This document shows, piece after piece, positions 13,101 to 33,775 of a DNA stretch of 64,000 nucleotides; positions within the stretch are counted from its first letter, which is position 1; each line of letters opens with the position of its first letter. The position numbers and the translations under genes are program-made. This DNA comes from Ruminococcus sp. (GTDB taxonomy: Bacteria; Bacillota; Clostridia; Oscillospirales; Acutalibacteraceae). Where the stretch lies: contig JAFSZY010000041.1 in assembly GCA_017458845.1 (NCBI GenBank), forward strand, positions 24,524-88,523, read 5' to 3'. Under the pieces are notes generated by a model that was not told the origin of the DNA, did not search any database, and saw nothing but the letters and a program-made list of their open reading frames with translations.

Positions 13101-13516
13101 TCAAAATCAACCCATTCGGCGTCGTTGCAGTAGTTGCCCCAATCATTGTTGTGTCCTGTGGAGAGCACACGGCACATCTTGCCGCTTGAAGGCAAACTAA
13201 CGTTGACGGTCTGGTGTTTTGTGGAAACATCACCATCGTTGAACAGAAACTCATTGAAGCTCGCCTTAGCAGTGTACTTGTAGATGTTCCCGCCGATATT
13301 CTCCATCTTATAGTCATAAAGTCCCGAGGGTTTAGGTGAACCCTCCCAGTAATAAATACAGATATTGTCGCTCCAGCTGTCGGGTTTCTCGAAGTAGATA
13401 ACATCGCCAGAGCTGACAGCGTTCGCGGATACCGCCACTGCAGAAAACAGCGACAGTATGAGGATAGCCGAAAGCATTAAACTAATCGACTTTTTGAACG
13501 ATTTTGTTAATTTCAT
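10145..13516 (-). CDS. Non-catalytic starch-binding surface protein: CBM26-like x2, Fn3/CHB_HEX_C-like x2, CBM74-like, PKD-like, T/Q/E-rich linker, Big_2, Lys-rich C-terminal module
   Basis: IYFEKPDSWSDNICIYYW and YFDNSKYNWDDVYIYAYG..WPGEKM (CBM26-type); ITVDGNPSDWDSSMIIAQGVANDDPR..YALYAAWDDTNLY..DPSTSHEKEDIDEITVPLARVG (CBM74-type); no GH13 motifs seen. TTGACT-17-TATAAT promoter at 13550-13578. Confidence 0.75.
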   Translation of the reverse strand: MKLTKSFKKSISLMLSAILILSLFSAVAVSANAVSSGDVIYFEKPDSWSDNICIYYWEGSPKPSGLYDYKMENIGGNIYKYTAKASFNEFLFNDGDVSTKHQTVNVSLPSSGKMCRVLSTGHNNDWGNYCNDAEWVDFEQPSIGLAVSASPKNCDFVGSIEVTLSVAEAAYGTYKINGGTSVQYTDGTKLTLGADAQTGDVIKLDLSASADNESVSESYTYTKVSTPSASSLAYFDNSKYNWDDVYIYAYGTKENAKWPGEKMQADESGLYYYAFSSAFKNENVIFNNGKEKDEGKEQYPENSGLPLKAGECKLLTADNEWVDYGTPDSKPAGFAYTASGTAFSTDTMNVKIGLKNAVKGTYQIDDGSVFEYTGTTTVSVGQGKIGNSTVKLTLTAENDKGVKTSTDFTYKKTFTPTKTTYYSPSDGHTSDAVGGYYGTNPNMQLGKSKTITVDGNPSDWDSSMIIAQGVANDDPRVYMPSSMHEQPWDDYALYAAWDDTNLYFMWEMANTTYIVSPSDNFAASQEARPWRNSIPMYLALSVDPSIHADGTAWGTDKSGNPYTNPYAWGCDGGVAKDGGVGFKTNVDTLIAFDTNNSNGGASIFKADHYDEATDNYMFNYDTRIPIGVTSFEKQDNQNGFKIAHNYGTLSDTLFGVGGAKGSHSLGDSLSPNSNWVDFFDLGYQNNHGFIYEVAVPLSTLGIDKNYIETNGIGAMQILTYGTSGMDCLPYDASMQDNANVEYSYDPSTSHEKEDIDEITVPLARVGALLSDSVINEAPCEVNFGADKAGTQGVGTPITLKAEPYNFKSNNLTYRFTVNHQMVQESSSNTYTFTPTDKMTYSLGVMVLDENGKYAAGGTSITIGEEAPAVTEPTEPETYTQPTQSTETQATGTQPTQPTQNTQTTEPTETNTSGTQGTQPTEPTQASAETQSTNPTSETQTTEPTETQAPETTIKLKATKSTIYVGSTTTVKATVDYGVGSTTFKSSNTKVATVSSSGVVKGLKAGSVIITATNNGKSATVKINIVKKTNPMKVKASAKTVKYNTVKKKAVTVKAITVSKAQGTISYKKTSGKKFFTVNAKTGKITVKKGTNKGTYSIKVKVTAKGNTTYKPGTKTVTVKIKVK

Positions 13517-13711
13517 TTAAGCCACCTGACTTTCTTCTAAATTAATTATATTATATAACCAAAAACAATCAAAGTCAATCAATATATTTCAACTTTTACG
13601 CTCTATTATCCTGAGCGGACAGCCGCAGAAGATTTTCAAACTGTCATTCTGAGGAGCGTAGAGATGAAGAATCCCCCTGTTTTTTTATCACGGCATATAG
13701 AGGAAGTTAAC

Positions 13712-13769
13712 GGGCGGGCACAGAGACCCGCCCCTACGCGTTCACAGCGGGCACAGAGACCCTCCCCTA
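13712..13769 (-). repeat. Tandem GTAG-type REP palindromes
   Basis: The minus strand reads GTAG-GGGCGGG-TCTCTGTG-CCCGCCC (13712-13737), with a second, imperfect copy at 13747-13769. Confidence 0.75.
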
Positions 13770-13846
13770 CGCGTTAACTGACAAAAAGGGCGATTGAATT
13801 TTTTCGGTCACCCATAATTGTTGGTACATATTCAGCCTCCCTTTGC
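13763..13846 (+). repeat. Left copy of an ~84-bp direct repeat (partner 23325-23407)
   Basis: CCCCTACGCGTTAACTGACAAAAAGGGCGA..TTTTTCGGTC.CCC..AATTGTT.GTACATATTCA.CCTCCCTTTGC; about 9 differences from the right copy by hand count. Confidence 0.9.
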
Positions 13847-14017
13847 GGCAACACGCCTGTTATCATCAAGTACCTGTTCCGGCAGCTTACGGCACAAAAT
13901 AAAAACGCTTCGTATATCTGCGTCAACCTCGGCGAAAGCTTCTGCCCTGACGAAATCATCGACCAATCAATTTGCGTTAACGCCGACATCGGCAAGGTCA
14001 TAAACGATTTTAAGTAA
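13847..14017 (+). pseudogene. 3' remnant (56 codons) of a Sir2-family (SirTM-type) gene
   Basis: GNTPVIIKYLFRQLTAQNKNASYICVNLGESFCPDEIIDQSICVNADIGKVINDFK* matches the C-terminus of Firmicute SirTM-type sirtuins as recalled. It begins exactly where the direct repeat ends and has no start codon. Confidence 0.75.
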
Positions 14018-14109
14018 CAAAAGCTCCGGGCGTAAAACTCGGAGCTTTTCATAGACATTTTTGATATAATTTGGTATTATACAATTATCAACTATCTATG
14101 GAGGTCATT

Positions 14110-14748
14110 ATGAATCAGATTGAACGCAGGGATAATGGCTTGGCATACGTTTGCGAAGACGAAGCTTTCGCGCAGCAGGCGGAGTGCCGCAAGATTTTAC
14201 AGCAGCTTAACTTTATGGACCGTTCCGATTTTGACGGAATAAAAGAAGTTGTCAAAAAGCTGTTCGGCAAGTCGGACGAACCTTTTATCAACCCGCCGTT
14301 TTACTGCGATTACGGCTTTAATATCGAAGTCGGTAAAGAGTTTTTCGCTAACTATAACTGCACGATTATTGACGTTGCGAAGGTAAAAATCGGTGACAAC
14401 TGTATGCTCGCGCCGAATGTTGCGATTTACACAGCCGGACATCCTCTCCATCCCGACACACGTCGCTCGTATTACGAATACGGCAAGCCCGTAACAATCG
14501 GTGATAATGTTTGGATTGGCGGCAACGCGGTAGTTTTGCCCGGCGTTACAATAGGCTCGAACAGCGTGATTGGCGCGGGAAGCGTTGTTACCCGAGATGT
14601 TCCACCGTGGAGTATCGCGGCAGGCAACCCGTGCAGGGTTATCAGAACTATCACAGAAGCCGACAGAAAAAAACTATTTAAAAATGAAGAAATTGACTCT
14701 GAAGCGTGGGATGATATTGTCATCAACGGCTTCGGCGGGGAAGTGTAA
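14110..14748 (+). CDS. maa: Sugar (maltose/galactoside) O-acetyltransferase
   Basis: INPPFYCDYGFNIEVG, hexapeptide repeats, YTAGHPLHP..EYGKPVTIGDNVWIGG; GGAGG RBS; TAGACA-17-TATTAT promoter at 14052-14080. Confidence 0.92.
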   Translation: MNQIERRDNGLAYVCEDEAFAQQAECRKILQQLNFMDRSDFDGIKEVVKKLFGKSDEPFINPPFYCDYGFNIEVGKEFFANYNCTIIDVAKVKIGDNCMLAPNVAIYTAGHPLHPDTRRSYYEYGKPVTIGDNVWIGGNAVVLPGVTIGSNSVIGAGSVVTRDVPPWSIAAGNPCRVIRTITEADRKKLFKNEEIDSEAWDDIVINGFGGEV

Positions 14749-14754
14749 CAAAAG

Positions 14755-15237
14755 ATGTTAATACACAAATATGATAAAAAAGATATAAGTCAAATGATTG
14801 ATTTATGGAACGAGGTCGTCGAGGACGGTATTGCCTTTCCTCAGGAAGAGCTTTTGAATGAAGAAACAGGCGCGAAGTTTTTTGCTTCACAGAGTTATTG
14901 CGGCGTTGCAATTGATGACAGCGGAAAGGTTGTCGGATTATATATCCTGCACCCCAACAACGTCGGTCGGTGCGGGCATATCTGTAACGCAAGCTATGCT
15001 GTAAGCTCCAAGTGCAGAGGGCGGCATATCGGCGAAAAGCTCGTACTGGACTGTATAGTGCAAGCAAAAGAAATCGGTTTTAAGATTTTGCAATTCAACG
15101 CCGTTGTCGAGAGCAATATTCACGCCCGCCATCTATACGAGAGAATCGGCTTCACTCAGCTCGGTGTTATCCCGAACGGTTTTCGGATGAAGGACGGATA
15201 CTATGAAAATATCTGCCCGTATTTTATACAATTATAG
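14755..15237 (+). CDS. GNAT-family N-acetyltransferase
   Basis: CRGRHIGEKL acetyl-CoA loop; QFNAVVESNIHARHLYERIGF. Confidence 0.9.
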   Translation: MLIHKYDKKDISQMIDLWNEVVEDGIAFPQEELLNEETGAKFFASQSYCGVAIDDSGKVVGLYILHPNNVGRCGHICNASYAVSSKCRGRHIGEKLVLDCIVQAKEIGFKILQFNAVVESNIHARHLYERIGFTQLGVIPNGFRMKDGYYENICPYFIQL

Positions 15238-15348
15238 GTGAAAGAAAAACTATGACAAAGCATTAATGGTCTTGGCTTCCGAAGGATATACAATAATATA
15301 AGTTTCCGGTTGAGAGTACAGACTGATTATTGATAAGGATGTGAGATC

Positions 15349-16224
15349 ATGCACGACATCTGGAATCCGTGGCACGGCTGCAAAAAGTGCAGCGAGGGCT
15401 GCGAGAACTGTTATATGTACTTTCTTGACGCTCAGCGCGGCAAGAACGACGCGGACATCTACCGCACAAAAGCGGGTTTTAATTATCCACTGTCAAAGGA
15501 CAGAAGCGGACATTACAAGGTCAAAAGCGGCGAACAACTACGCGTGTGTATGACCTCAGACTTTTTCCTTGAGGAAGCGGACGAATGGCGTGTTGAAGCT
15601 TGGAATATCATCCGAAGCCGCCCCGACGTAGTTTTCTTTCTGCTGACAAAACGTCCTCAGAGAGTACGGGATTGCCTGCCCGATGATTGGGGCGACGGCT
15701 GGGAAAACGTCTTTTTCAACGTCAGCTGTGAGAATCAGAAGCGAGCCGACGAGCGTATCCCTATTCTGCTTTCCCTGCCGTTCAAGCACAAGGGAATTAT
15801 GTGTGCTCCGTTTATCGGCTCAGTGAGCATCCGTGAGTACCTCGCGACAGGACAACTCGAACAGGTGATATGCGACGGAGAAAACTACGCCGGAGCCCGC
15901 CCTTGTCATTATGAGTGGGTAAAGCAGCTGAGCGACGAGTGCCGGGAATTTAACGTCACCTTTGTTTTCTGCGGCACGGGAAGACGCTTCGTCAAGGACG
16001 GCAGAGAGTATCGGATCGAAGGAAACGCCTTACAAAGCGAACAGGCGCATAAATCGGAGCTTAGCTTTAAGGGCAAGCCAATCAATTTCAAGTTGACCCG
16101 ACAGCTCGGTTTCAAAATCGCCGACAAGGATTATTACAAGCCCTACTTCGGCGGGAAATGCCAAACCTGTGGAATGAAACCAATCTGCAACGGCTGCACC
16201 CGCTGCGGCAAATGCGAACAATAA
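15349..16224 (+). CDS. DUF5131 / phage Gp37-Gp68-family radical-SAM-like protein with a C-terminal Cys cluster
   Basis: WNPWHGCKKCSEGCENCYMY; LLTKRPQR; C-terminal CQTCGMKPICNGCTRCGKC. Confidence 0.85.
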   Translation: MHDIWNPWHGCKKCSEGCENCYMYFLDAQRGKNDADIYRTKAGFNYPLSKDRSGHYKVKSGEQLRVCMTSDFFLEEADEWRVEAWNIIRSRPDVVFFLLTKRPQRVRDCLPDDWGDGWENVFFNVSCENQKRADERIPILLSLPFKHKGIMCAPFIGSVSIREYLATGQLEQVICDGENYAGARPCHYEWVKQLSDECREFNVTFVFCGTGRRFVKDGREYRIEGNALQSEQAHKSELSFKGKPINFKLTRQLGFKIADKDYYKPYFGGKCQTCGMKPICNGCTRCGKCEQ

Positions 16225-16266
16225 ACCGACCTCTGTTTGGACTAAGAAATCCAAACGTAGGTTATC

Positions 16267-16317
16267 TTGACACTAATCCGAAATCGGACTATAATGACAT
16301 TGTCCGATTTCGGATTA
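16267..16317 (+). promoter_or_regulatory. Consensus promoter TTGACA-17-TATAAT with two palindromic operator copies (TCCGAnnTCGGA), probable MarR sites
   Basis: -35 at 16267-16272, -10 at 16290-16295; arms 16274-16289 and 16302-16317 form a perfect 16-bp inverted repeat. Confidence 0.85.
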
Positions 16318-16338
16318 ATTCTATTTAGGATGAGTGTT

Positions 16339-16785
16339 ATGAATAAAAAAGAAAAAGATTATTTAATCGCGCTGGGAACACAGGAAAAGCAGTTCGACGC
16401 GCTGTATAGAAAAGCGGCGTTAACATACGGCTTATCCGACTGCTCCATGTGGGTGCTCTACTTTCTGTCGCTCCACGGCGATATGACACAGCAGGAGATG
16501 ACCGGGTTGATGATGTTTCCAAAGCAAACAATCAACTCCGCTATCGGCAGTTTGCAAAAGAAAGGTTATGTCGCTTTTTCATCTGCAAAGGAAAGCTACG
16601 GCAGAAAGCGCGTCAGTCTGACTGCTGAGGGAAAAGCCCTTGTCGAAAAGACCGTTGTCAAAATGATGAACGCGGAGGAAAAGGCGCTGAAAGCGTTCGG
16701 ATATGAGAAAACAGAGCAGTTTATCGCATTGTATAAGGAATTCTATGACGCATTAACCAACAGCTTTGACGAGGTGTTGAAATGA
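16339..16785 (+). CDS. MarR-family transcriptional regulator
   Basis: TQQEMTGLMMFPKQTINSAIGSLQKKGYV..RKRVSLTAEG. Confidence 0.9.
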   Translation: MNKKEKDYLIALGTQEKQFDALYRKAALTYGLSDCSMWVLYFLSLHGDMTQQEMTGLMMFPKQTINSAIGSLQKKGYVAFSSAKESYGRKRVSLTAEGKALVEKTVVKMMNAEEKALKAFGYEKTEQFIALYKEFYDALTNSFDEVLK

Positions 16786-19037
16786 AAGACGATATCAGAA
16801 TCATAGACGCTTACGAAAACAATTTGAAGCATATTAACGTTACAATTCCGAAAGGTAAGCTCGTGGTGTTTGCGGGCGTATCAGGCTCAGGCAAAAGCTC
16901 GCTCGCTTTTGAAACGATCGCCGCCGAGAGCAGCCGCGAGTGGCAGAGCTCCTATCCACTGTTCCTGCGCAACAAAATGCCTCACTATGACAGACCGAGG
17001 GTTGGCGAAATCCAAAACCTCACGCCGTCTATCGTAGTAAATCAGAAGCCCCTCGGCAACAGCACTCGCTCCACCGTCGGTACGGCGATAGACGCGGCTC
17101 CGCTGATTCGTTTGTTGTTCTCGCGTGTGGGAAAACCAAGTGCGGGCGGCTCGATGGCGTACTCGTTCAATCATCCTCTCGGTATGTGCCCCGACTGCAC
17201 CGGCTTGGGAGAACGGCTGGAGCTGATCGAGGACAGGATGTTCAATACCTACATCTCGCTCAGTGAAGGGGCATTACAGTTCAGTCAATTCTCGGCGGGA
17301 TGGCAGAAGCACTTATATCAGAATAATCCTCTGCTGAATCCCGATAAAAAACTATCAGATTTCACAGATGAGGAATGGGATATCCTCAAATACGGCTCAA
17401 AGGAGCCTGTCAAAATCGGTATACGTTCCAATAACACGGGTCGTGTGGATATGGTGGAATATGAGGGAGTTATACCGCGCTTTGAGCGGCTTTATCTCAG
17501 ACGGGATATCGGCAAGTTGAAAAAGAGCTTGCAGGACGAGATATACTCCCTCGTTGATAAATGTAACTGCAAAAGCTGCGGCGGTACGGGACTGAATCCC
17601 ACCGCGCTGAAATCAAGAATCAACGGCTATAATATCGTAGACTTCAACTCAATGACCGCCGCCGAGCTGCTGCCGATTTTGGAAAGCATCGCCGATCCTG
17701 TAGGCAAATCTATCGCAAGACAGCTCAGTTCCTACCTTGAGCGTATGATCGCCGTCGGTATAGGCTACCTCGCCTTTTCACGTAGAACGGATACGCTTTC
17801 GGGCGGTGAGGCACAGCGCATCAAGATGGTGCGCAACTTGGGCAGCAGCCTGAATAATATCACCTACATTTTTGACGAGCCGACCGCCGGTCTTCATCCT
17901 GCCGACGCGGAGAAGATTGGTAAGCTCCTTGTCGATTTGCGGGATAAGGGCAACAATGTTCTCGTGGTAGAGCACAGCCGGCAAATGATTGAACTCGCCG
18001 ACCATATCATTGAAATGGGCGAAGGAGCCGGAACGAAGGGCGGCAAAATCATCTTTGAGGGTACAATCGAAGAATTGAAAGAAGCAAATACGCCGACCGC
18101 CGCGTTTTTGAAAGAGGCTGTTATTCTCAATCAGAATCCGAAAAAATGGACAGAGTGTTTCGCTATTCGTGATGCGCATTGTCACAACCTGAAAAACATC
18201 GATACCGATATTCCGAAAGGCGCTCTGACTGCCATTACCGGCGTTGCGGGCTCGGGCAAAAGCTCACTTGCGTGTCACGAATTTGTCCACGCCTATCCCA
18301 ACGCGATCGTTATCGACCAGAAGCCTATCGGCACCTCAATTCGCTCCACACCCGCGACCTATACGGGCGTGATGGATGATATCCGCAAGTTGTTCGCAAA
18401 AGAAAACAAACTCAGCGTGAGTTGGTTCAGCTTCAATTCAAAGGGCGGCTGTCCCGTATGCAAGGGCACCGGCAAAATCACCTATGATATGGCGTTCGCC
18501 GAGCCTATAACCGTCAAATGCGAGGAGTGCGGCGGCAGACGCTACAACGAAAAGGCGCTGTCCTTCACCTACAAGGGTAAAAATATTGAGGAAATTATGG
18601 CGCTGACGATTGCGCAGGCGCTCGACTTCTTTGATGACGAGAAGATCCGCAATCCGCTGAAAACACTCTATGACGTCGGGCTGGGTTATCTAACGCTCGG
18701 TCAGCTGACAAGCACGCTCTCGGGCGGCGAGATTCAGCGCATCAAGCTGGCGAGCGAGCTGCATAAAGAGGGAAAAACTTACGTCCTCGATGAGCCGAGC
18801 ACAGGTCTGCATCATAAGGATGTCGGACTGCTGTTGAAGTTGCTCAGAAAGCTCGTCAGCCAAAACAACACCGTCATCATCGTCGAGCATCGCCCCGAGC
18901 TGATTGCTCAATGCGATTGGATAATTGATATGGGACCTGAAGGCGGCTTGAGGGGCGGCAGAGTCATCGCGCAGGGCACGCCCGCCGAGGTTGCCGAAAA
19001 AACCAACAGCATAACAGGACGGTATCTCAGAAACTGA
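16782..19037 (+). CDS. UvrA-like ABC protein, short class II / DrrC-like type
   Basis: Two ABC cassettes (GVSGSGKSSL, LSGGEAQRI; GVAGSGKSSL, LSGGEIQRI) and zinc fingers CPDCTGLG, CKSCGG, CPVCKG, CEECGG; 751 aa, shorter than canonical UvrA; translationally coupled to MarR. Confidence 0.85.
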   Translation: MKDDIRIIDAYENNLKHINVTIPKGKLVVFAGVSGSGKSSLAFETIAAESSREWQSSYPLFLRNKMPHYDRPRVGEIQNLTPSIVVNQKPLGNSTRSTVGTAIDAAPLIRLLFSRVGKPSAGGSMAYSFNHPLGMCPDCTGLGERLELIEDRMFNTYISLSEGALQFSQFSAGWQKHLYQNNPLLNPDKKLSDFTDEEWDILKYGSKEPVKIGIRSNNTGRVDMVEYEGVIPRFERLYLRRDIGKLKKSLQDEIYSLVDKCNCKSCGGTGLNPTALKSRINGYNIVDFNSMTAAELLPILESIADPVGKSIARQLSSYLERMIAVGIGYLAFSRRTDTLSGGEAQRIKMVRNLGSSLNNITYIFDEPTAGLHPADAEKIGKLLVDLRDKGNNVLVVEHSRQMIELADHIIEMGEGAGTKGGKIIFEGTIEELKEANTPTAAFLKEAVILNQNPKKWTECFAIRDAHCHNLKNIDTDIPKGALTAITGVAGSGKSSLACHEFVHAYPNAIVIDQKPIGTSIRSTPATYTGVMDDIRKLFAKENKLSVSWFSFNSKGGCPVCKGTGKITYDMAFAEPITVKCEECGGRRYNEKALSFTYKGKNIEEIMALTIAQALDFFDDEKIRNPLKTLYDVGLGYLTLGQLTSTLSGGEIQRIKLASELHKEGKTYVLDEPSTGLHHKDVGLLLKLLRKLVSQNNTVIIVEHRPELIAQCDWIIDMGPEGGLRGGRVIAQGTPAEVAEKTNSITGRYLRN

Positions 19038-19159
19038 TAACAAAAGGGTTAAAAAATATCCTCCTTTTGGAAATCCAAGCGAAAGGTTTTGTAGACATTT
19101 TTATGATTATCTGATAAAATAGATGTCAGAATAAATCAGAAAATTGCGGAGATATTTGT

Positions 19160-20032
19160 ATGGGAACTACTCTTAAAAAAGGTTTAGTTTTAGAAGGCGG
19201 CGCTATGCGCGGTATGTTCACGTGCGGCGTAATGGATGTTCTTATGGAAAATGGCATAGATTTTGACGGTGCCGCGGGTATTTCGGCTGGCGCTGCTTTT
19301 GGCTGCAATTATAAATCAAAGCAAATCGGCAGACCAATCCGCTATAATAAAAATTTCTGTAAGGATCCACGATATTGCAGCATTCGTTCTCTGATAAAGA
19401 CAGGTGATTTGTACGGTGCGGATTTTTGTTATCGGGAGATTCCCGACACTCTTGACCCGTTTGACAGAGAAACTTTCCGAAACAATCCTATGGAGTTTTA
19501 TGTAGGCGCAACAGATGTGAGTACAGGCAAATGTATTTATCATAAATGTACCGACGGCGGAGAAACAGATACAAAATGGATGCAGGCTTCCGCTTCAATG
19601 CCAATGGTTTCAAAGCCTGTCAAAATTGACGGATACACGCTGCTTGACGGCGGAATAACAGACTCTGTTCCATACGCTTATATGGAACAGCTCGGCTATA
19701 ATCGTAATGTAATTGTATTAACGCAGCCGAAAGACTATAGAAAAACTAAAAGCAGGGCGCTCCCGATAATTAAACTTATGCTTCATAAATACCCTGCTGT
19801 GGCGAATGCAATGGCTGTACGACACAAAATGTATAACCAACAAATGGAAGAGATAAAGGAAAGAGAACAAAAAGGTATTTCCTTTGTGATAAGACCGCCT
19901 AAAGCACTTGAAATCAGCCGAACAGAAAATAATACCGATGAGCTGGAAAGAGTTTATCAGATGGGTCGCAAAGAAGCGCAAAACGCGCTTCCTAAGTTAA
20001 AAGAATTTTTGGAGACGCCTGACAAAATCTGA
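19160..20032 (+). CDS. Patatin-family phospholipase/esterase
   Basis: LEGGAMRG, GISAG nucleophile, LDGG; TAGACA-17-TAAAAT promoter at 19092-19120. Confidence 0.92.
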   Translation: MGTTLKKGLVLEGGAMRGMFTCGVMDVLMENGIDFDGAAGISAGAAFGCNYKSKQIGRPIRYNKNFCKDPRYCSIRSLIKTGDLYGADFCYREIPDTLDPFDRETFRNNPMEFYVGATDVSTGKCIYHKCTDGGETDTKWMQASASMPMVSKPVKIDGYTLLDGGITDSVPYAYMEQLGYNRNVIVLTQPKDYRKTKSRALPIIKLMLHKYPAVANAMAVRHKMYNQQMEEIKEREQKGISFVIRPPKALEISRTENNTDELERVYQMGRKEAQNALPKLKEFLETPDKI

Positions 20033-20134
20033 TTTTTCTTATGATGTCAATCGCTCTCAAAATAAAAAATACGTCTTGACCGAAAAAGAAGAATGGCAGC
20101 AGACACATTTTATCAGATAAAGAAGAAAGATATT

Positions 20135-21292
20135 ATGATTCGGGAAATATTACATCCAAAAGAAAAGAAAGTTGAATACGTCGAGCTAATCTACGACCTG
20201 ATTTTCGTTTATATAATCGGGCGCAACAATCAGCTTCTCCATTCATTTGAAAACGGCTTTGTGTCATTGCCGGCGTTTCTCGCGTATGTGATGACGACGC
20301 TCGCTATCATCCAGATATGGAATTTCAGCACCTACTATATTAACGTTTATGGTCGGCACAGCGTTCGGGAACACATATTTATGTTCGTAAATATGTTTCT
20401 GCTGTACTTTATCGGCGAGGGGACAAGAACAGACTGGCAGGGCTATCATACACAGTATCATATCGCGTGGGCGCTGATTCTCGTTAATATCGGCGTGCAA
20501 TATTTGATTGAAATGCGTAATCATAAGGGTAATGCTGAAAACCGAAAGCATATGATTCAGATGGCGGTCATACTGTTTGTTGAAGCCGCTTTGGTCTTGT
20601 CGGATATTTATTTTTATCAAACCTTCGGACACACATGGATGTCGCTGGCTGCAATCCTGTTCGGCGTAGGAGCGGTTTTTGTCTTTGGTCAGAAAAACAG
20701 CGCAGATGTAATTGATTTTCCGCATCTGTCCGAACGCGCGATGCTGTATGTTGTTTTTACCTTCGGTGAAATGATAATCGCTATTTCATCCTATTTTGAG
20801 GGAGGCTTCTCTATCACAGGCGTCTATTACGCGCTGATGGCTTTTATGATTGTGGTCGGACTGTTTTTGAGCTACGGAATGTTTTACGACCATATTATCG
20901 ACCGTGAAAAGCGCACGAACGGACTCGCGTATATGCTTCTGCATATCTTCCTCATTTTTGCGATGAACAATATCACAAACGGTCTGGAGTTTATGCGGGT
21001 GGAGGAAGTCAGTCTGATACCAAAGCTTCTGTTTCTGATTGTATCGATGATTTTGTTCTTCGGCTGCTTGTTCGCGCTTGGCAGCCGCCACGCAAAGGCG
21101 AAGTGCAGGAGATACAATCTCATATATCTGAAAACAGGAGCGGCAAGCGCGGTGTTTATCACACTGATGCTTTTGCTGCGCGAGAATATGATGATCAATA
21201 TTTTTATCACGGTCGCGTTTGTGTTCGGCTTGTTTTGGATGATATACCGATATGGAAAGCAAATCGACAAAGTGGAAACAGAAAAGAAATAA
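20135..21292 (+). CDS. ltrA: Low temperature requirement protein A (LtrA)-family membrane protein
   Basis: KKVEYVELIYDLIFV; HLSERAMLYVVFTFGEMII; start uncertain (20093 or 20135). Confidence 0.8.
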   Translation: MIREILHPKEKKVEYVELIYDLIFVYIIGRNNQLLHSFENGFVSLPAFLAYVMTTLAIIQIWNFSTYYINVYGRHSVREHIFMFVNMFLLYFIGEGTRTDWQGYHTQYHIAWALILVNIGVQYLIEMRNHKGNAENRKHMIQMAVILFVEAALVLSDIYFYQTFGHTWMSLAAILFGVGAVFVFGQKNSADVIDFPHLSERAMLYVVFTFGEMIIAISSYFEGGFSITGVYYALMAFMIVVGLFLSYGMFYDHIIDREKRTNGLAYMLLHIFLIFAMNNITNGLEFMRVEEVSLIPKLLFLIVSMILFFGCLFALGSRHAKAKCRRYNLIYLKTGAASAVFITLMLLLRENMMINIFITVAFVFGLFWMIYRYGKQIDKVETEKK

Positions 21293-21401
21293 ACGAATCA
21301 ACCTCCGTTTGGATTTTTTAAATTTTCAAACAGAGGTTTTTATAGACAAAGAATAGGCTTTCTGTTATGATAAGAGCAAGAAAAAACAAGGCGGTAATAA
21401 T

Positions 21402-21878
21402 ATGTTCAGAGAAATGCGGCGCTTCAAACAGCAGCTCAGCGAGGAACACTGTATTCAAATTTTGAAGGACCAGCCAAGGGGCGTGCTTTCGATGCTTGGG
21501 GTGAACGGCTATCCCTACGGCATACCGATGAATCACTGGTACAGCGAAAAAGATAACAAGCTGTATTTTCACTGCGCGAAGGTCGGACATAAGATTGACG
21601 CTATTTCCGCTTGCGATAAGGTCAGCTATTGTATTATGGATAAAGGATATCGCAGGGACGGCGAGTGGGCGCTGAACATCAACAGCGTTGTTGTGTTCGG
21701 ACGCATCCGCATTGTAATGGATAAAGATAAGAAAAAACAGATTTGCACCAGCCTGTGCAGGAAGTTTACCGATGACGAAGCGTATATCCAAGAAGAAATC
21801 GATAGCTCATTTTCGCGAGTGTGCTGTTTGGAGCTCACCATCGAGCATATGACAGGCAAGCTGGTAAACGAATCATAA
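21402..21878 (+). CDS. Pyridoxamine 5'-phosphate oxidase-like flavin-binding protein (Nim-like)
   Basis: MFREMRR.., GVLSMLGVNGYPYGIP, LYFHCAKVGHKID; TAGACA-17-TATGAT promoter at 21343-21371. Confidence 0.85.
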   Translation: MFREMRRFKQQLSEEHCIQILKDQPRGVLSMLGVNGYPYGIPMNHWYSEKDNKLYFHCAKVGHKIDAISACDKVSYCIMDKGYRRDGEWALNINSVVVFGRIRIVMDKDKKKQICTSLCRKFTDDEAYIQEEIDSSFSRVCCLELTIEHMTGKLVNES

Positions 21879-21892
21879 AAGGAGAGAATACT

Positions 21893-22369
21893 ATGAGTAA
21901 AACATTGGTAGCATATTTTTCTGCAAGCGGTACTACCGCAAGACTTGCGAAGAATTTGTCAAAAGCGGCAGGAGCGGATTTGTACGAAATACGCCCCGCC
22001 GTGGAGTACACAAGGGCGGATTTGAACTGGATGGATAAGCAGTCGAGAAGCTCGGTCGAAATGCGCGACAAAAGCTCGCGTCCCGCGCTTGCCGACACAG
22101 CCGCGGATATAGCGGCATACGGTACGATTTTCATCGGCTTCCCGATTTGGTGGTACATCGCGCCGACAATCATCAACACATTCTTGGAAGCCTATGATTT
22201 CAGCGGCAAGAAGATTGTACTGTTCGCCACCTCAGGCGGTTCGGGCTTTGGCAAAGCTGTCGATAGCTTACAGCCGTCAGCTCCCGATGCCGAAATCATA
22301 GCAGGCGAAATCCTCAACGGCAATCCGAACGAAAAGAAGCTGAAAGCGTTTGCTGAAAAATATTTTTAA
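21893..22369 (+). CDS. Flavodoxin
   Basis: LVAYFSASGTT; IGFPIWWYIAP; FATSGGSG; AAAGGAG RBS. Confidence 0.92.
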   Translation: MSKTLVAYFSASGTTARLAKNLSKAAGADLYEIRPAVEYTRADLNWMDKQSRSSVEMRDKSSRPALADTAADIAAYGTIFIGFPIWWYIAPTIINTFLEAYDFSGKKIVLFATSGGSGFGKAVDSLQPSAPDAEIIAGEILNGNPNEKKLKAFAEKYF

Positions 22370-22379
22370 GGAGGCAGCT

Positions 22380-23243
22380 ATGATTTTCAACGAAACATTT
22401 ACACTGAACAACGGAGTAAAAATCCCGAAGCTCGCGCTCGGCACATGGTTTATCGACGATGACAAGGCTGCCGAAGCGGTGCGTCAGGCGATAAAAATCG
22501 GCTATCGCCACATTGATACCGCTCAGGCTTACGGCAATGAGCGCGGCGTAGGCGAAGGCGTCCGTTCCTGCGGTGTGCCGAGAGAGGAGCTTTTCATCGT
22601 TTCCAAGGTCGCAGCGGAGCATAAGGACTATGACAGCGCGATGAAATCTATTGACGAGACGCTAGCTAAAATGGGGCTTGATTATCTTGATATGATGATT
22701 ATTCATTCCCCTCAGCCGTGGATGGAGGTCAATCAGTCCGACGACAGATACTATCAGGGCAACAAGGTAGCCTGGAGAGCTTTAGAGGACGCTCTTGAAG
22801 CGGGCAAGCTGAGAGCAATCGGCGTTTCTAACTTTTTGGAACAGGATATCGAGAACATTCTTGAGGACTGCCGCGTTAAACCGATGGTCAACCAGATTCT
22901 CGCGCATATCTCCAACACGCCCTTCGACTTGATTGACTACTGCAATAGCAAGGGAATCATAGTCGAGGCGTATTCTCCCGTTGCTTACGGCGCCGCGCTC
23001 GGAAATCCCGCTATCAAAGAGATTGCCGATAAATACGGTGTGTCCGTTCCGCAGCTTTGCATAAAATATGACTTGCAGCTCGATTTGGTTGTACTGCCCA
23101 AGACCGCGAATCCCGACCATATGAGAGCAAACGCTGACCTCGGTTTTACTATCTCGGACGAGGATATGGAAACACTGAAAGCGATTCAGCCGCTCGATTA
23201 CGGCGAAGCGAGCTATTTCCCCGTATACGGCGGCAAGCTATGA
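22380..23243 (+). CDS. Aldo/keto reductase
   Basis: GYRHIDTAQAYGNE, RAIGVSNF, LPKTANPDHMRAN. Confidence 0.93.
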   Translation: MIFNETFTLNNGVKIPKLALGTWFIDDDKAAEAVRQAIKIGYRHIDTAQAYGNERGVGEGVRSCGVPREELFIVSKVAAEHKDYDSAMKSIDETLAKMGLDYLDMMIIHSPQPWMEVNQSDDRYYQGNKVAWRALEDALEAGKLRAIGVSNFLEQDIENILEDCRVKPMVNQILAHISNTPFDLIDYCNSKGIIVEAYSPVAYGAALGNPAIKEIADKYGVSVPQLCIKYDLQLDLVVLPKTANPDHMRANADLGFTISDEDMETLKAIQPLDYGEASYFPVYGGKL

Positions 23244-23275
23244 GCATCACGCTGAATCTGTACTATACCGGCAAG
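23240..23275 (+). pseudogene. 5' remnant (about 12 codons) of a putative quinol monooxygenase (ABM-family) gene
   Basis: ATG overlaps the AKR stop (ATGA). MSITLNLYYTGK matches the N-terminus of Firmicute ABM proteins as recalled; similarity stops where repeat DNA begins. Confidence 0.6.
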
Positions 23276-23305
23276 GGTGATTCCTCGACAAGCTCAGACA
23301 ATAAT

Positions 23306-23495
23306 GGGGATACCGAGACGGTATCCCCTACGCGTTAACTGACAAAAAGGGCGACCGAAATTTTTCGGTCGCCCTAAATTGTTTGTACATATTCAACCTC
23401 CCTTTGCTAAAGGGATGTGGCGCGCGCTTGCGCGTGACGGTGGGATTGATTTTTAATCCCCCTGCTTCGCTTCCCCCTTAAACTAAGGGGGACTT
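23306..23495. repeat. REP plus palindromic repeat cluster containing the right copy (23325-23407) of the ~84-bp direct repeat
   Basis: The minus strand reads GTAG-GGGATACCG-TCT-CGGTATCCC. Further hairpins: GGGCGACCGAAA/TTTCGGTCGCCC, CCCTTT-GCT-AAAGGG and CCCCCTTA/TAAGGGGG. Confidence 0.85.
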
Positions 23496-23496
23496 T

Positions 23497-26400
23497 TTAT
23501 TTAACTTTTACCTTAACGGTCACCGTCTTAGATTTTGCCTTATAAGCTGTGTTGCCCTTAGCGGTAACTTTGATTTTAATCTTATATGTTTTGCCTTTCT
23601 TTAGTCCTTTCTTGACTGTCAGCTTACCCGTCTTTTTATTGATACTTATTTTGGAATTGCCTGAAACCTTCTTGTAGGTAACGGTACCCTTTGCATTTTT
23701 AACCTTGAGGACTTTGGACTTTGAGAAGGTTGTTTTCTTCGCAGCCTTTGCTGTGACGGTCTTGCCCTTTACGGTAAGCGTGTTGACGCGCTTGACAACC
23801 TTAATCTTGACGGACGCGGACTTACCGTTGTTGGTCGCCGTGATTATTACGGAGCCCGCCTTCTTGCCGACAACCTTGCCTGAGGATGTAACTGTGGCAA
23901 CCTTTGTGTTGCTTGACTTGAATGTTGTGCTGCCGACGCCGTTTGTCACCGAAGCGTAAACCTTAGTGGAAGCGTTTACATAGATTGTAGACTTTGTTGC
24001 CGCTGCGGCAATAGATGTCTGGTACTGCTGCTCGGTAGCCTGTGTTTCACCGGTTGATTGGGTATCTGTTTCAGGCTCGGTAGTCTGATTATCCGTAGTT
24101 GCCTGAGTGGCTTCGGTTGCCTCTGTATTCTCACCGGATTCAGTTGCCTGAGTTGCATCCGTCGTCTGAGTAGACTCAGTTGACTCAGTTGTTTCAGTGT
24201 TTCCTGTGGTTGCTTCAGTTGCCTCAGTTGCCTCAGTTGTCTGAGTTGCCTGAGTAGCTTCGGTGGTCTCGGTTGTTTCGGTTTTCTTTGTGATTACCGT
24301 TACGGAAACCTCGCCTTTAATCTTAGTCAGGCGATAAGTGTTTGCGAGAGTCGAGCTGAGATCCTTCAGATTCTTATAGTTAGTGTCCGGTGTCGCTGTA
24401 ACGCTTTCCACCTCATAACCGTCAGCGGGAACTACGGTAAAATTGACCTGACCGTCGCCCGAGCTGTCGGGTTCGCCCGTATCGCTGTTTCTCGAAACCG
24501 CCGAAATTACGTTTGTCGCGGAAGCCACGGAATAATCCTGTGTATTATATGTGTTAATTGTCGCGTTGCCGTCTGTGATGAAGCTTACAGTGTAGCCCTC
24601 GTCGGCAGTTGTCGCGGAAGTCGCTTCTGTGCTATCAGTTGTCTGAGCGGCTTCTGTTGTGGCTTCTGTCGCGCTTGTTGTCGCTTCTTCCTCAACATAC
24701 TCTGTAACCGTAGTGAGCGCGGGTATGGTCTTGTACTCAACCCGGCTTGAATCGGAGCAAGTGTACTTGAGCAAGCCTGTGCTTGATGTTGTCGCGGCGC
24801 TCACAACAGTACCGCTGTTCCAGCTGTGGGCCCAAGGGTTGCCCTTGGAGGTTGTAACGCTTGAAGCTGTGGAATATGAGGTGTTGGATGAGGTTGTGTT
24901 AGCGTCAGAGTAGAGAATATAGTTTACGTTTCTGAGGAGCTTTTCACTGCGAACCACACTGCCGCTTTGAGTTACGTTAATAACTGTGCCGGCTGAACGG
25001 CTTGTTGTTGAAACGTAATATTTCTGAGTGCCGGTCTGGGAGCTTGGGTTCTCGTTCATCGAATTTGTTCCCGCGGCGAAAACCGTGCCGCCTGTGATTG
25101 TAATCGTGCCGTCGCAGTCAAGGGGCGAGTTGTCGCCGCCTGTGGCTTGCGAAAGGACTGTCACATCGCCGCCTGAGATTTTGAGGTCGCCGTTTGAGTC
25201 GAGACCGTCGCCTGTACAGTTCACATAAACGTTGCCGCCATAGATGTTGATTGAGTAGTCGGATGAGCCCGAGCTCTGCTGGCCGCCCTGCTGACCGGGC
25301 TGATTTCCGCCCTGACCGGGACCGCCCTGGTTTCCGCCCTGACTGCCCTGACCGGGTCTGAACTGGTCGTTGCCGCCCTGTCCAGGGTCGGTGCCGTTGG
25401 AGCTGCCGCCTGCGGCGTTGATGCCATCGTCGGAAGCGTTGACATAAAACTTACCTGAGTAAATATTGACTACGGCTCCTTCTAAGCCCTCGTAGCTTGA
25501 ATTGACTGTAATCTCGGGGTCGCGGTCATAGCCGTTCTCTGTGCCGAGTGTGAGAGTAGCGTCGGCGTGGACGCCGTCGTCGCCTGTGTAGATATCAAAC
25601 GTACCGCCTGTGATTGTAATATAGCCGTTGGAGTGAACCGCGTCGTCGGCTGTGTTGAGGCTAAAGGTACCGCCCGAAATTGTCATAGTGTTTGTGGGGT
25701 TGTTCTCGTCAGTGACATTGTTGCTCGAAACCTTCAAGCCCTTACAGCTCATTGTATCCTTGTTAAAGGTTAAACTGCCGTATCCGTTTTCTGTTTTTAC
25801 GGTATAATCACCGTTTGTAATGGTGAGGTTCTCAGCCGCGACAATACCGTCGCCCTGAGCGTTGATATTAAAAGTACCGCCGTTGATTGTAACAGTACCC
25901 GCGGAGTCTGTGTCCCCCTCGTCGGGCTGGGACTTGATTCCGTCGTTTCCGGCTGTCACGTTGAATGTGCCCGCGTTGATTACGACGCTGCCGTCAAAGG
26001 CTATGCCATTGTTGGCGGCTGTGGCGTTTATAATTCCGCCGTCAACGATTAACGAAGATGTTGTGCCGCCCTTGATTGCGTTCTTGGGTGTGCCGACAGC
26101 GTTGAGCGTGCCGTCGCCGAAAATCGTGAGCGTTGAGCCTGCCTTGACCTTAATCGCCGCTCCCTCAAAGTCCGAGTTGGTCTCGTCGAGAGTTTCGTTA
26201 TCGGTGATTGTGCTTGTGCCCTCGAGCTTTAGAAGCACCGAACTCGACTTTTTCACAACTATCGGAGCTGTGCTTGCCGAGGTTAAATCGAGGTCATCGA
26301 GTATCAGCGTAACTCCGCTGAGACTGCCCTTAACGACAATCGCGCCCTCGGAGCAGCTGCCTGTCACACGATAGGTGCCCGCCTCGTTGATTGTGAGCGT

Positions 26401-26565
26401 TGCGCCGCTTATGGTATAGCCAGAGCCCGAAACGGTCTCGGTTATACCGCTGTCCGTGAATGTAAGCGTTGCCTGCTCAGCCGAGTACGCCGATGCCGTA
26501 AAAGGTATCATCGACAAAATCATAAGAGCCGCGAGTATTACGCTCAGAAGTCTGGTAGTTTTCAT
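23497..26565 (-). CDS. Cthe_2159 (DUF4353)-family beta-helix carbohydrate-binding surface protein with T/E-rich linkers, Big_2 and Lys-rich C-terminal module
   Basis: GSCSEGAIVV, repeated GDGI/DDAVHSNG/DDGVHAD/DDGINAAGG/GDGLDSNG/NSPLDCDG Ca-binding turns, G/Q-rich insert; start ATG 26565 with GGAGG RBS. Confidence 0.88.
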   Translation of the reverse strand: MKTTRLLSVILAALMILSMIPFTASAYSAEQATLTFTDSGITETVSGSGYTISGATLTINEAGTYRVTGSCSEGAIVVKGSLSGVTLILDDLDLTSASTAPIVVKKSSSVLLKLEGTSTITDNETLDETNSDFEGAAIKVKAGSTLTIFGDGTLNAVGTPKNAIKGGTTSSLIVDGGIINATAANNGIAFDGSVVINAGTFNVTAGNDGIKSQPDEGDTDSAGTVTINGGTFNINAQGDGIVAAENLTITNGDYTVKTENGYGSLTFNKDTMSCKGLKVSSNNVTDENNPTNTMTISGGTFSLNTADDAVHSNGYITITGGTFDIYTGDDGVHADATLTLGTENGYDRDPEITVNSSYEGLEGAVVNIYSGKFYVNASDDGINAAGGSSNGTDPGQGGNDQFRPGQGSQGGNQGGPGQGGNQPGQQGGQQSSGSSDYSINIYGGNVYVNCTGDGLDSNGDLKISGGDVTVLSQATGGDNSPLDCDGTITITGGTVFAAGTNSMNENPSSQTGTQKYYVSTTSRSAGTVINVTQSGSVVRSEKLLRNVNYILYSDANTTSSNTSYSTASSVTTSKGNPWAHSWNSGTVVSAATTSSTGLLKYTCSDSSRVEYKTIPALTTVTEYVEEEATTSATEATTEAAQTTDSTEATSATTADEGYTVSFITDGNATINTYNTQDYSVASATNVISAVSRNSDTGEPDSSGDGQVNFTVVPADGYEVESVTATPDTNYKNLKDLSSTLANTYRLTKIKGEVSVTVITKKTETTETTEATQATQTTEATEATEATTGNTETTESTESTQTTDATQATESGENTEATEATQATTDNQTTEPETDTQSTGETQATEQQYQTSIAAAATKSTIYVNASTKVYASVTNGVGSTTFKSSNTKVATVTSSGKVVGKKAGSVIITATNNGKSASVKIKVVKRVNTLTVKGKTVTAKAAKKTTFSKSKVLKVKNAKGTVTYKKVSGNSKISINKKTGKLTVKKGLKKGKTYKIKIKVTAKGNTAYKAKSKTVTVKVKVK

Positions 26566-26740
26566 AGTGTTGTCCTCCAATCATTATGTTCAGGGAATTG
26601 CCTTTCCCTTAGTTTACATATTAAGCTTAAATAGTATATGTGATATGTTTTTGAACACAATCTGTTTTATTTTGAAAAGTTTTGCGAAATAATCATCTCT
26701 GTGTATAAATAATACAAAAGAAATCTTGAAGTTTTATTGC

Positions 26741-26793
26741 AAAAATCATAACCACCCGTCAAACGGGTGGTTATGATTTTTGCAATCAAATCC
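26741..26793. repeat. Long perfect hairpin (23-bp arms) whose core AACCACCCGTCAAACGGGTGGTT resembles IS200/IS605-type terminal palindromes
   Basis: ATTGCAAAAATCATAACCACCCG-tcaaa-CGGGTGGTTATGATTTTTGCAAT is seen directly; no transposase nearby. Confidence 0.6.
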
Positions 26794-27030
26794 AAGCTAT
26801 GATATCTATGAACTGATGAAGATAGGTAACCTGTCCCAAATTGAGTAATCCTCGCTGTCGTTCCTAGCTTGCCGAGGAGTCTCCTTCCTCTTATATCCGC
26901 GTAAGGGCGGGTGTCTCTTCCTAAAGCGGAGACGGACTTTGTTTATCCACGTCATACACTGTATTTCCAACTGAAATGTATTTCTCCACGGACATTTTCT
27001 CGTGATTGCAATAAAGGCGCGACATATTAT

Positions 27031-27065
27031 AACACAGAGCCGACTATTGAGTCAGCTCTGTGTTT
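27031..27065 (-). terminator. Terminator of the kinase/FHA operon
   Basis: ACACAGAGCTGACT-caat-AGTCGGCTCTGTGT with a G-U pair on the minus strand. Confidence 0.75.
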
Positions 27066-27099
27066 GTAAGCTTAAAATATTCACCTAATACAGCGTCGT

Positions 27100-28374: not shown

Positions 28375-28427
28375 ATAATTGCCTCCTAAAATATATTTAT
28401 AAATAGTCATTCGACCGTTTATACTGC

Positions 28428-29273: not shown

Positions 29274-29283
29274 AAACACCTCT

Positions 29284-30753: not shown

Positions 30754-30771
30754 ATAAAGCCCCCTTTAGAA

Positions 30772-31485: not shown

Positions 31486-31488
31486 ATA

Positions 31489-32925: not shown

Positions 32926-32940
32926 TGTTTTTTCTCCTTA

Positions 32941-33774: not shown

Positions 33775-33775
33775 A

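What the first reader, a model, noticed from the sequence alone, without database searches (positions are those of the whole stretch)
13712..23495. ~9.4-kb gene block that starts and ends mid-gene, bracketed by REP-associated ~84-bp direct repeats
Seen: direct repeats at 13763-13846 and 23325-23407 (about 9 differences), each starting in a GTAG-type REP. The left copy stops within the CCCTTT-GCT-AAAGGG hairpin loop that is complete in the right copy. The 3' end of a sirtuin gene follows it directly, and at the other end an ABM-like gene is cut after about 12 codons. The block is on the + strand within minus-strand surroundings, and no integrase or transposase is present. Known: GTAG REPs are substrates of RAYT/TnpA-REP HUH nucleases. 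Inference: foreign DNA captured or moved via REP hairpins or by recombination between repeats, a transposase-in-trans composite unit.
Basis: partly seen in the sequence, partly recalled or inferred. Interest (0 to 1): 0.66.

Follow-up and report, generated by a model that had tools for sequence, protein, structure and literature searches.

The report
Accessory gene block between REP-like repeats
A 9.4-kb fragment of a widely shared set of detoxification and stress genes sits in a rumen Ruminococcus chromosome between two copies of the host's own hairpin and terminator module; it looks like an old, fixed product of illegitimate recombination at palindromes, not a mobile unit.

Summary
An 84-nt direct repeat (13763-13846 and 23324-23407, 8 mismatches) brackets a + strand block. 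The block starts with the last 56 codons of a 289-aa sirtuin and ends about 14 codons into an ABM gene. Independent assemblies and four runs from three studies carry both junctions.

The repeats are two copies of a host module: a GTAG-type REP hairpin, a linker and a terminator hairpin. The left module stands at the same place in a sister species. The right half of the repeat occurs at two or more further loci, always followed by a multi-copy hairpin cluster. Only the left copy is cut, inside a hairpin loop.

Both joints look illegitimate. The left joint shares only GC. The right joint lies exactly at the outer end of a 52-nt REP unit that occurs in other contexts.

The block's genes occur in many orders, at about 80% nucleotide identity or more, in other gut metagenome contigs.

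The block accompanies its flanks in every run that holds the species. I found no empty site, circle, second location, transposase, integrase or RAYT gene.

Capture of foreign DNA at REP-type palindromes is supported. A RAYT-driven composite unit is not. Interest is modest.

The parts
10145..13516 (-). Left flanking gene: 1123-aa starch-binding surface protein (CBM26, Big_2, cadherin-like C-terminus). Its promoter region up to 13598 is conserved in the sister species.
13712..13742 (-). REP a: hairpin GGGCGGG/CCCGCCC followed by CTACGCGTT (GTAG plus stem on the minus strand).
   Evidence: About 5-6 copies of this type by k-mer depth.
13746..13775 (-). REP b: does not fold in this strain. In strains X5/X6 it reads GGGCGCCCGAGACGGACTCCCC, nearly the same as REP f of the sister species.
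13763..13846 (.). Left copy of the 84-nt repeat: REP 3' end, linker AACTGACAAAAA and a decayed terminator hairpin. It is cut two bases into the loop of the second hairpin.
13847..14017 (+). 3' fragment (last 56 codons and stop) of a 289-aa sirtuin-like gene. The intact gene lies next to a macrodomain gene in other genomes.
14098..14748 (+). Maltose/galactoside O-acetyltransferase-like hexapeptide protein.
14794..15237 (+). GNAT acetyltransferase.
15349..16224 (+). DUF5131 protein.
16339..16785 (+). MarR-family regulator.
16782..19037 (+). UvrA-like double ABC ATPase (751 aa, below the UvrA cut-offs). Missing or replaced in strains X5/X6.
19160..20032 (+). Patatin-like phospholipase with DUF6363.
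20093..21292 (+). LtrA-family membrane protein.
21414..21878 (+). PNPOx-fold, Nim-like protein (below the Nim cut-offs).
21893..22369 (+). Flavodoxin (Flavodoxin_4).
22380..23243 (+). Aldo/keto reductase.
23240..23280 (+). ABM gene stub: 41 nt, the first 13-14 codons, with its ATG overlapping the AKR stop codon. The open frame runs on to 23338 in unrelated sequence.
23279..23331 (-). Unit U with REP c: a 27-nt tail, the 10-bp hairpin GGGGATACCG/CGGTATCCCC and CTACG. Two or more further copies with other flanks share the same left end.
23324..23407 (.). Right copy of the 84-nt repeat. It holds an intact, terminator-like hairpin that scores on both strands (23348-23375). It continues into the complete second hairpin (23400-23414).
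23408..23496 (.). Cluster of short GC-rich hairpins (H), multi-copy by k-mer depth. It follows every other copy of the module's right half.
23497..26565 (-). Right flanking gene: 1022-aa Cthe_2159-domain surface protein with a cadherin-like C-terminus.

Best explanation
The block is a fragment cut from a larger array of small accessory genes. These genes (acetyltransferases, a MarR/UvrA-like pair, patatin, LtrA, a Nim-like protein, flavodoxin, an aldo/keto reductase) are shared among gut-metagenome bacteria, most likely Firmicutes, by lateral transfer.

In this Ruminococcus species the fragment lies in an intergenic cluster of palindromes between two surface-protein genes. The two 84-nt repeats are two paralogous copies of a host module. 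The module consists of a GTAG-type REP hairpin, a short linker and a terminator hairpin, normally followed by a second hairpin and a multi-copy hairpin cluster.

The block's ends are illegitimate joints placed at structural landmarks of these modules. The left joint is in the loop of the left module's second hairpin. The right joint is at the outer end of the REP unit that precedes the right module.

Inferred history: palindrome-associated illegitimate recombination produced the joints. Either one insertion or replacement event made them, or deletions later trimmed a larger island and removed any mobility genes. The structure then became fixed in the species.

Inferred present roles: the right copy ends transcription of both the aldo/keto reductase operon and the converging surface-protein gene. 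The left copy has no job and is decaying. The repeats are not transposon ends and the block is not mobile now.
For: Both ends are cut genes. Homology to intact sirtuin genes starts at 13845 with only GC shared at the joint. ABM homology ends at about 23280.

The left module is native. The sister species has two REP units, the same linker and a hairpin upstream of its ortholog of the 1123-aa gene (L012). Strains X5/X6 carry a left REP nearly identical to the sister's.

The right copy belongs to a family. Two or more further copies of its right half exist, and all continue into TAAAGGG and the hairpin cluster. One of them lies beside the 3' end of a paralogous surface-protein gene. Only the left copy is cut.

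Unit U with REP c has the same left end in three or more contexts.

The right copy folds strongly (-22.5 kcal/mol, z -5.8) and scores as terminator-like on both strands. The left copy has lost this fold (-7.2, z +0.6).

The block's genes occur in other orders at 78-85% identity in L006, L007 and L019. Many contigs of other runs show the same shuffling, with depths up to about 400.

The sister species and run X9 lose homology at 13598 and carry other DNA there, including an IS1182-like transposase.

Block and flanks occur together in all runs holding the species.

No recombinase was found in the window ORFs scanned.
Against: - No empty site was recovered, so the state before insertion is inferred, not seen.
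- The two copies share the 11-nt linker and a perfect 31-nt tract that the other family members lack. This fits a duplication made by the integration itself (first rival) at least as well as gene conversion between neighbours.
- Block GC content (0.47) equals that of the flanks, so composition gives no sign of foreign origin.
- Terminator function is predicted only. No RNA run was available.
- The whole genome could not be searched, so copy numbers rest on k-mer depth in metagenome contigs.
Confidence: 0.5

Rival explanations
1. The duplication was made by the integration. A circular piece of DNA carried ABM'-U-REP c-linker-module joined to sir'. It integrated by a single homologous crossover through the one module then present between the two surface-protein genes (Campbell type). 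A replicative template switch at the hairpins would give the same product. Either way one module copy is left on each side.
For: The left and right copies share the REP end, the linker and a perfect 31-nt tract that the other family copies lack. The right copy runs on into recipient-type sequence (the hairpin cluster) and the left copy runs on into recipient-type REPs. The geometry is exactly that of a single crossover. The sister species' Cthe_2159 gene has no such module downstream, so one ancestral module is possible. A similar 63-nt exact duplication of a terminator region brackets a variable segment in the sister species.
Against: It needs three events: ABM'|U, the loop|sir' circle joint, then the crossover. 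No circle, donor or single-module empty site was found. The two copies differ at 8 of 53 positions outside the identical tract, and compared with the further copies of the right half both have diverged from the family consensus.
Confidence: 0.27
2. REP/RAYT-mediated capture. The REP units are substrates of a Y1 HUH transposase encoded elsewhere. That enzyme cut and joined single-stranded DNA at the REPs and moved the block as a composite unit.
For: The units have the REP layout: GTAG directly 5' of a stem that varies with compensating changes. Unit U with REP c has discrete, reproducible ends in several contexts, as an inserted element would. The right block joint lies exactly at that end. Group 1 RAYTs are reported in Clostridia (PMC5581495). 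An IS sits next to the REPs in the sister species.
Against: No Y1 transposase is in the window. The REP types have only about 3-6 copies by depth. The units stand in direct orientation, not as inverted pairs. The left joint lies 84 nt from the GTAG, in another hairpin's loop, and the right joint 27 nt from the stem at TC|AC; neither is a CT next to the REP stem (PMC8266576). The unit is seen in one context only, and there is no flanking target duplication.
Confidence: 0.08
3. The block is the decayed remnant of a site-specific integrative element, a cis-mobilisable element. The repeats would be its attL and attR, and the integrase module was lost by deletion.
For: Direct repeats with an identical 31-nt core flank DNA of accessory character. 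In L007 the sirtuin-Maa pair lies about 6 kb from a serine recombinase, Mob and RepA_N module.
Against: There is no integrase. The left repeat is cut at an arbitrary point in a hairpin loop and abuts a gene fragment. The repeats belong to a host multi-copy family. No attB-like empty site was found. The pattern scans found the module nowhere else.
Confidence: 0.05
4. Assembly artefact: a chimeric join through the repeats.
For: Logan contigs break at the repeats.
Against: Two independent ENA assemblies and contigs of four runs from three studies cross both joints, with the copy-specific differences.
Confidence: 0.01

Closest known systems
REP/BIME sequences and their RAYT (TnpA-REP) transposases of Proteobacteria
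   Same: Extragenic position. A GTAG tetranucleotide stands directly 5' of a short GC-rich stem whose sequence varies with compensating changes. The units occur in clusters mixed with other hairpins, often just after genes. An IS lies beside them in the sister species.
   Different: Only a few copies of each type instead of tens to hundreds. The units are direct rather than inverted pairs. No RAYT gene was seen. The host is a Ruminococcus. The block joints are not at the CT sites next to the stem.
Illegitimate recombination and rearrangement join points at REP or other palindromes, and homology-facilitated illegitimate recombination of foreign DNA (named from my own knowledge, not tested here)
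   Same: The joints lie at hairpin landmarks and share 2 nt, or up to about 6-9 nt. Foreign genes are inserted without a recombinase. A repeated host sequence is available as a homologous anchor.
   Different: These processes usually replace DNA and do not leave a direct repeat on both sides. Here an 84-nt module copy stands at each end.
Translocatable units and Campbell-type integration through a shared repeat (IS26-like units, plasmid integration by single crossover)
   Same: Direct repeats of a shared sequence flank the inserted DNA, and the insert carries no recombinase.
   Different: The shared sequence is a non-coding 84-nt host module, not an IS. The copies are 90% identical and one is a stump. 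No circle or second site is known.
Integron cassette arrays
   Same: A run of small, unrelated genes on one strand, found in many orders in different genomes.
   Different: No intI gene, no attC-like repeats between the genes, and the similarity between genomes stops at the gene borders.

Membership tests
REP/BIME-RAYT system (REPtron) | Conserved GTAG tetranucleotide directly 5' of an (imperfect) palindrome | tested here: met
   REP a, REP c and the sister species' REP e and REP f all read CGTAG-GGG...CCC on the minus strand, with different stems that still pair. REP b does not fold in this strain.
REP/BIME-RAYT system (REPtron) | High copy number in extragenic space | tested here: inconclusive
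   Three units and one degenerate unit in 64 kb. K-mer depth suggests about 5-6 copies of the REP a type and about 3 of the REP c type. The complete genome was not available. Three pattern scans of public collections, run with module patterns rather than the REP stems alone, found nothing.
REP/BIME-RAYT system (REPtron) | A cognate Y1 transposase (RAYT) gene, usually flanked by the REPs | tested here: not met
   No such domain in the window ORFs scanned or in the pre-computed gene tables of the same contig. The rest of the genome could not be tested.
REP/BIME-RAYT system (REPtron) | Cleavage or joining at CT beside the REP stem | tested here: not met
   The joints are at ...TTTGC|GGCAA, 84 nt from the GTAG, and at ...GGGTGA|TTCC, 27 nt from the stem. 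The criterion comes from PMC8266576.
Composite transposon or mobile unit bounded by repeats | Equivalent terminal elements | tested here: not met
   The left copy is an 84-nt stump with a decayed hairpin. The right copy is complete and runs on into the hairpin cluster.
Composite transposon or mobile unit bounded by repeats | Target-site duplication outside the unit | tested here: not met
   The sequences outside the pair differ: GAGACCC on the left, TAAAGGG on the right.
Composite transposon or mobile unit bounded by repeats | The unit occurs in more than one genomic context, or empty sites exist | tested here: not met
   The context is the same in all assemblies and runs. Block and flanks occur together. 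No skipping joint was seen.
Site-specific integrative element (att repeats) | Integrase or recombinase gene in the element | tested here: not met
   None in the block.
Site-specific integrative element (att repeats) | Direct repeats with an identical core at both ends | tested here: met
   A 31-nt identical tract within the 84-nt repeat.
Integron | intI gene and attC sites between cassettes | tested here: not met
   No integrase. The intergenic regions hold ordinary terminator and promoter modules and no shared attC-like repeat.
MITE | Terminal inverted repeats and a target-site duplication | tested here: not met
   No terminal inverted repeats around the module; only internal hairpins.

The most novel reading that the evidence does not exclude
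This Ruminococcus lineage may have an uncharacterised REP-like element system. It would consist of GTAG hairpin units with discrete ends plus terminator modules, and it would actively capture and relocate gene blocks, leaving 60-90-nt duplications that contain a terminator. Two observations point this way: the 84-nt pair in the window, and a 63-nt exact duplication of the atpD 3' end with its terminator in the sister species. If true, this would be a recombinase-in-trans or replication-based route for gene-block capture in gut Firmicutes.
Probability: 0.1. Interest if true: 0.7.

Novelty: new member of a known kind. Interest (0 to 1): 0.33.

Why it matters
The locus shows base by base how a commensal Firmicute picked up a piece of a shared pool of detoxification-type genes without any recombinase of its own. 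It also shows that both joints lie at palindromic landmarks of a host repeat family. This adds a Ruminococcus example to the known link between REP-like palindromes and rearrangement joints. It also describes a GTAG-type REP-like family in a Ruminococcus; I did not find such a family described for this genus, but my literature check was limited.

In practice, such truncated, repeat-bounded islets should not be annotated as mobile elements. The repeats can break metagenome assemblies, as the Logan contigs show here.

Tried and rejected
- Empty-site search through homologs of both flanking proteins. Relatives are either not syntenic (L013-L015, L017) or their contigs end at the critical point (L012, L016, L018).
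- Exact-pattern scans for the module in public genome and metagenome contigs: CTACGYGTTAACTRACAAAMAGGG in both collections, and TAAAGGGAKGTGGCGCGCGCTTGCGCG in genome contigs only. All gave 0 hits, so neither the genome nor a RAYT gene could be reached.
- Laying contigs of eight runs over the locus. No joint skips the block. The 10582->23942 joint comes from paralogous C-terminal domains.
- Small-protein reading of the repeat. On the minus strand it has GGAGG, 7 nt, ATG and 20 codons ending in the TAG. Rejected: all 7 differences within the ORF change the amino acid, none is silent, the ORF overlaps the terminator stem, and the other family copies would change its C-terminus.
- Known RNA families: no Rfam match in the window at gathering threshold.
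- RNA evidence: no RNA run is served.
- Missing gene halves: the window holds no sirtuin 5' part, macrodomain gene or ABM 3' part.
- Plasmid search with window 13700-21600: only distant single-gene matches of about 67-70%.
- Defence-system reading: only partial hits to candidate families, and no complete system.
- Composition: the block's GC content equals that of the flanks.
- One literature search was too loosely worded and returned nothing useful.

Full report
**1. What is there**

The window comes from a Ruminococcus of ruminant and other gut metagenomes. Homologs of the flanking genes are named starch-binding or carbohydrate-binding proteins of Ruminococcus sp. MAGs.

An 84-nt direct repeat lies at 13763-13846 and 23324-23407. 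It has 8 mismatches, and the first 31 nt are identical. Its 30-mer core occurs twice in the window, against none in shuffles.

Between the copies all genes are on the + strand:
- a sirtuin 3' fragment;
- a Maa-like acetyltransferase and a GNAT;
- a DUF5131 protein;
- a MarR regulator with a UvrA-like ATPase;
- patatin and LtrA;
- a Nim-like PNPOx protein;
- a flavodoxin and an aldo/keto reductase;
- an ABM stub.

Both neighbours are large minus-strand surface-protein genes. The structure is not an assembly artefact. Two ENA assemblies and contigs of four runs from three studies cross both joints and keep the copy-specific differences.

**2. The two ends are cut genes**

Homology to intact 289-aa sirtuin-like genes starts at 13845. 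In L006 and L007 those genes follow a macrodomain gene, and in L007 the sirtuin gene is followed by Maa as in the window. The fragment equals residues 234-287 at 87% identity. At the joint the module reads ...CCCTTTGC and the gene reads ...GTCGGC|GGCAA, so only GC is shared.

At the other end the ATG of the ABM gene overlaps the reductase stop codon. Fourteen residues match an intact ABM protein, and DNA homology stops at about 23280. An intact reductase-ABM pair exists in L020. In L019 (reductase 93% identical) the ABM start survives for only 7 nt. The missing halves are not in the window.

**3. What the repeats are**

Each copy begins in the 3' arm of a hairpin followed by CTACGCGTT. On the minus strand this reads GTAG followed directly by a GGG...CCC stem. 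The stems differ between units but still pair:
- REP a: GGGCGGG/CCCGCCC;
- REP c: GGGGATACCG/CGGTATCCCC;
- two further units in the sister species.

After the REP come an 11-nt linker, a 12-bp terminator-like hairpin and about 25 nt. Then follows a second hairpin, CCCTTT-GCT-AAAGGG. The right copy folds at -22.5 kcal/mol (z -5.8) and scores as terminator-like on both strands. The left copy has lost the fold (-7.2, z +0.6) and stops two bases into the loop of the second hairpin.

K-mer depth and contig ends in runs X1, X3, X5 and X6 show four things:
- The 31-mer core has two copies (depth 13 against 6.4-7.4).
- The right half of the repeat has two or more further copies. All continue into TAAAGGG and a hairpin cluster that is itself multi-copy (depth up to 125 against about 7). 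One copy lies beside the 3' end of a paralogous surface-protein gene.
- A 52-nt unit (U with REP c, 23279-23331) occurs in two or more other contexts with the same left end.
- The REP a type has about 5-6 copies.

So the repeats belong to a low-copy family of host palindromic modules. Only the left copy is broken.

**4. Relatives**

In a sister species (L012, flanking protein 86% identical) homology to the window ends at 13598. After that come:
- a 63-nt exact copy of the atpD 3' end with its terminator;
- an AT-rich stretch;
- two REP units;
- the same linker (AACTAACAAAC) and a different hairpin;
- the end of an IS1182-like transposase gene at the contig end.

In strains X5/X6 the left REP reads GGGCGCCCGAGACGGACTCCCC, almost the same as the sister's REP f. 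The left module is therefore native to this place.

The sister's Cthe_2159 gene follows the V-ATPase operon directly and has no such module downstream (L016). In a third MAG the V-ATPase operon is missing as well (L018). The region is therefore plastic.

A 17-kb contig of run X9 also loses homology at 13598 and does not align elsewhere in the stretch laid (12500-27000), block included, at 80%. Block and flanks occur together, in similar shares, in every run that holds the species. I saw no block-free form and no joint that skips the block.

**5. The block's genes are a shuffled, shared pool**

L006 carries the DUF5131, PNPOx, Maa, LtrA and GNAT homologs at 78-85% nucleotide identity, plus the full-length sirtuin gene, but in another order. 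It also holds ABM, flavodoxin and reductase genes.

Contigs of other runs join sirtuin to DUF5131, PNPOx to Maa, DUF5131 to Maa and GNAT to PNPOx. Depths reach about 400. Similarity stops at the gene borders. No attC-like repeat lies between the genes. The intergenic regions hold ordinary hairpin, TAGACA and TATAAT modules. GC content does not differ from the flanks.

**6. Mechanism**

Shown:
- the block is a fragment of a larger array;
- both joints are non-homologous;
- the joints lie at landmarks of host palindromic modules;
- there is no recombinase in the block or in the window ORFs scanned.

Inferred: palindrome-associated illegitimate recombination. Two histories fit the data.

(a) Two paralogous modules were already there, for example as 3' flanks of tandem surface-protein genes. 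The foreign fragment then replaced what lay between them, or a larger island was trimmed by deletions that ended at the hairpins. This needs the fewest events. I give it about 0.5.

(b) A circle carrying a module copy integrated by one crossover through a single resident module, or a template switch at the hairpins did the equivalent. This explains why the two copies alone share the linker and a perfect 31-nt tract. I give it about 0.27.

A RAYT-type reaction gets about 0.08. The units have the REP layout, and Group 1 RAYTs are reported in Clostridia (PMC5581495). Against it:
- the joints are not at the CT sites beside the stem where TnpA-REP cuts (PMC8266576);
- copy numbers are low;
- the units are direct, not inverted pairs;
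- no RAYT gene was seen.

**7. Verdict**

Capture of foreign DNA at REP-type palindromes is supported. A transposase-in-trans composite unit is not.

The case is a new member of a known kind, a recombinase-free islet at a palindrome cluster. It comes with a description of a GTAG-type REP-like family in a Ruminococcus. The recurrence of a terminator-containing duplication in the sister species is the one feature that could point to something more general.

Noticed in passing
L016:9827-9889 and L012:819-881 (sister species, sample ERZ27298077): A 63-nt exact direct repeat made of the atpD 3' end and its terminator. One copy ends the V-ATPase operon. The other is an orphan stump upstream of the ortholog of the 1123-aa gene. 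If both contigs come from one genome, the pair brackets Cthe_2159, an IS1182-like gene and the REP cluster. It has the same style as the window's 84-nt pair.
   Followed up: partly
window 13637-13675: The unit GTCATTCTGAGGAGCGTAGAGATGAAGAATCCCCC has a k-mer depth of about 15 to 350 against about 3-8 for single-copy sequence in four runs. It is a very abundant short repeat in these metagenomes.
   Followed up: no
window 50070-50137 and 56600-56667; also 49940-50050 compared with 23417-23470: A second intergenic repeat family (68 nt, 90% identical) made of short hairpins. The hairpin cluster next to the right repeat shares the motifs GCGCTTGCGC..TGAC and CTGCYTCGCTT with 49940-50050.
   Followed up: partly
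window 16575-18720: In strains of runs X5 and X6 most of the MarR and UvrA-like genes is missing or replaced. One X6 contig has 485 nt in place of 2145 nt, and depth drops in X5. The block's content therefore varies within the species.
   Followed up: partly
window 26581-37102 and 37090-45332, compared with L016 and L018: The 10.5-kb segment holding the kinase, PP2C, FHA/VWA and PASTA genes is absent between the V-ATPase operon and Cthe_2159 in the sister species. The V-ATPase operon itself is absent in MAG GCA_017476465.1. The whole neighbourhood is a region of gene-block gain and loss.
   Followed up: partly
L012:1-300 (contig end): The 3' end of an IS1182-like transposase gene lies about 110 nt from the REP/hairpin module in the sister species. 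I identified it by reading the translation, not by a profile search.
   Followed up: no
window 26890-26935: A degenerate REP-like unit (GCGTAAGGGCGGGTGTCTCT...) in the opposite orientation, in the intergenic region upstream of the Cthe_2159 gene. A 28-nt near-perfect palindrome lies at 26732-26790.
   Followed up: no
L019:1040-2420 (JGI Ga0310690_10087042): In a contig whose reductase is 93% identical, the ABM start (ATGAGCA) is kept for only 7 nt and is followed by an Fe-alcohol-dehydrogenase-like ORF (judged from the translation) and then Maa. The reductase's 3' border has been broken independently at another point.
   Followed up: partly
window 50140-50604: A long untranslated stretch upstream of the AcrB-like gene holds a strong hairpin (CCTGTCCCAGCATTTGCCGGGACAGG) and extended structure-like sequence. 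There was no Rfam match at gathering threshold.
   Followed up: no
window 23279 and the other copies of unit U (runs X3, X5, X6): The left flank of the other U copies (...CTGAACGGTATATATAGCAAGGA) faintly resembles the ABM stub (...CTGAATCTGTACTATACCGGCAAGGGT). It is unclear whether this is chance, microhomology or shared origin.
   Followed up: no
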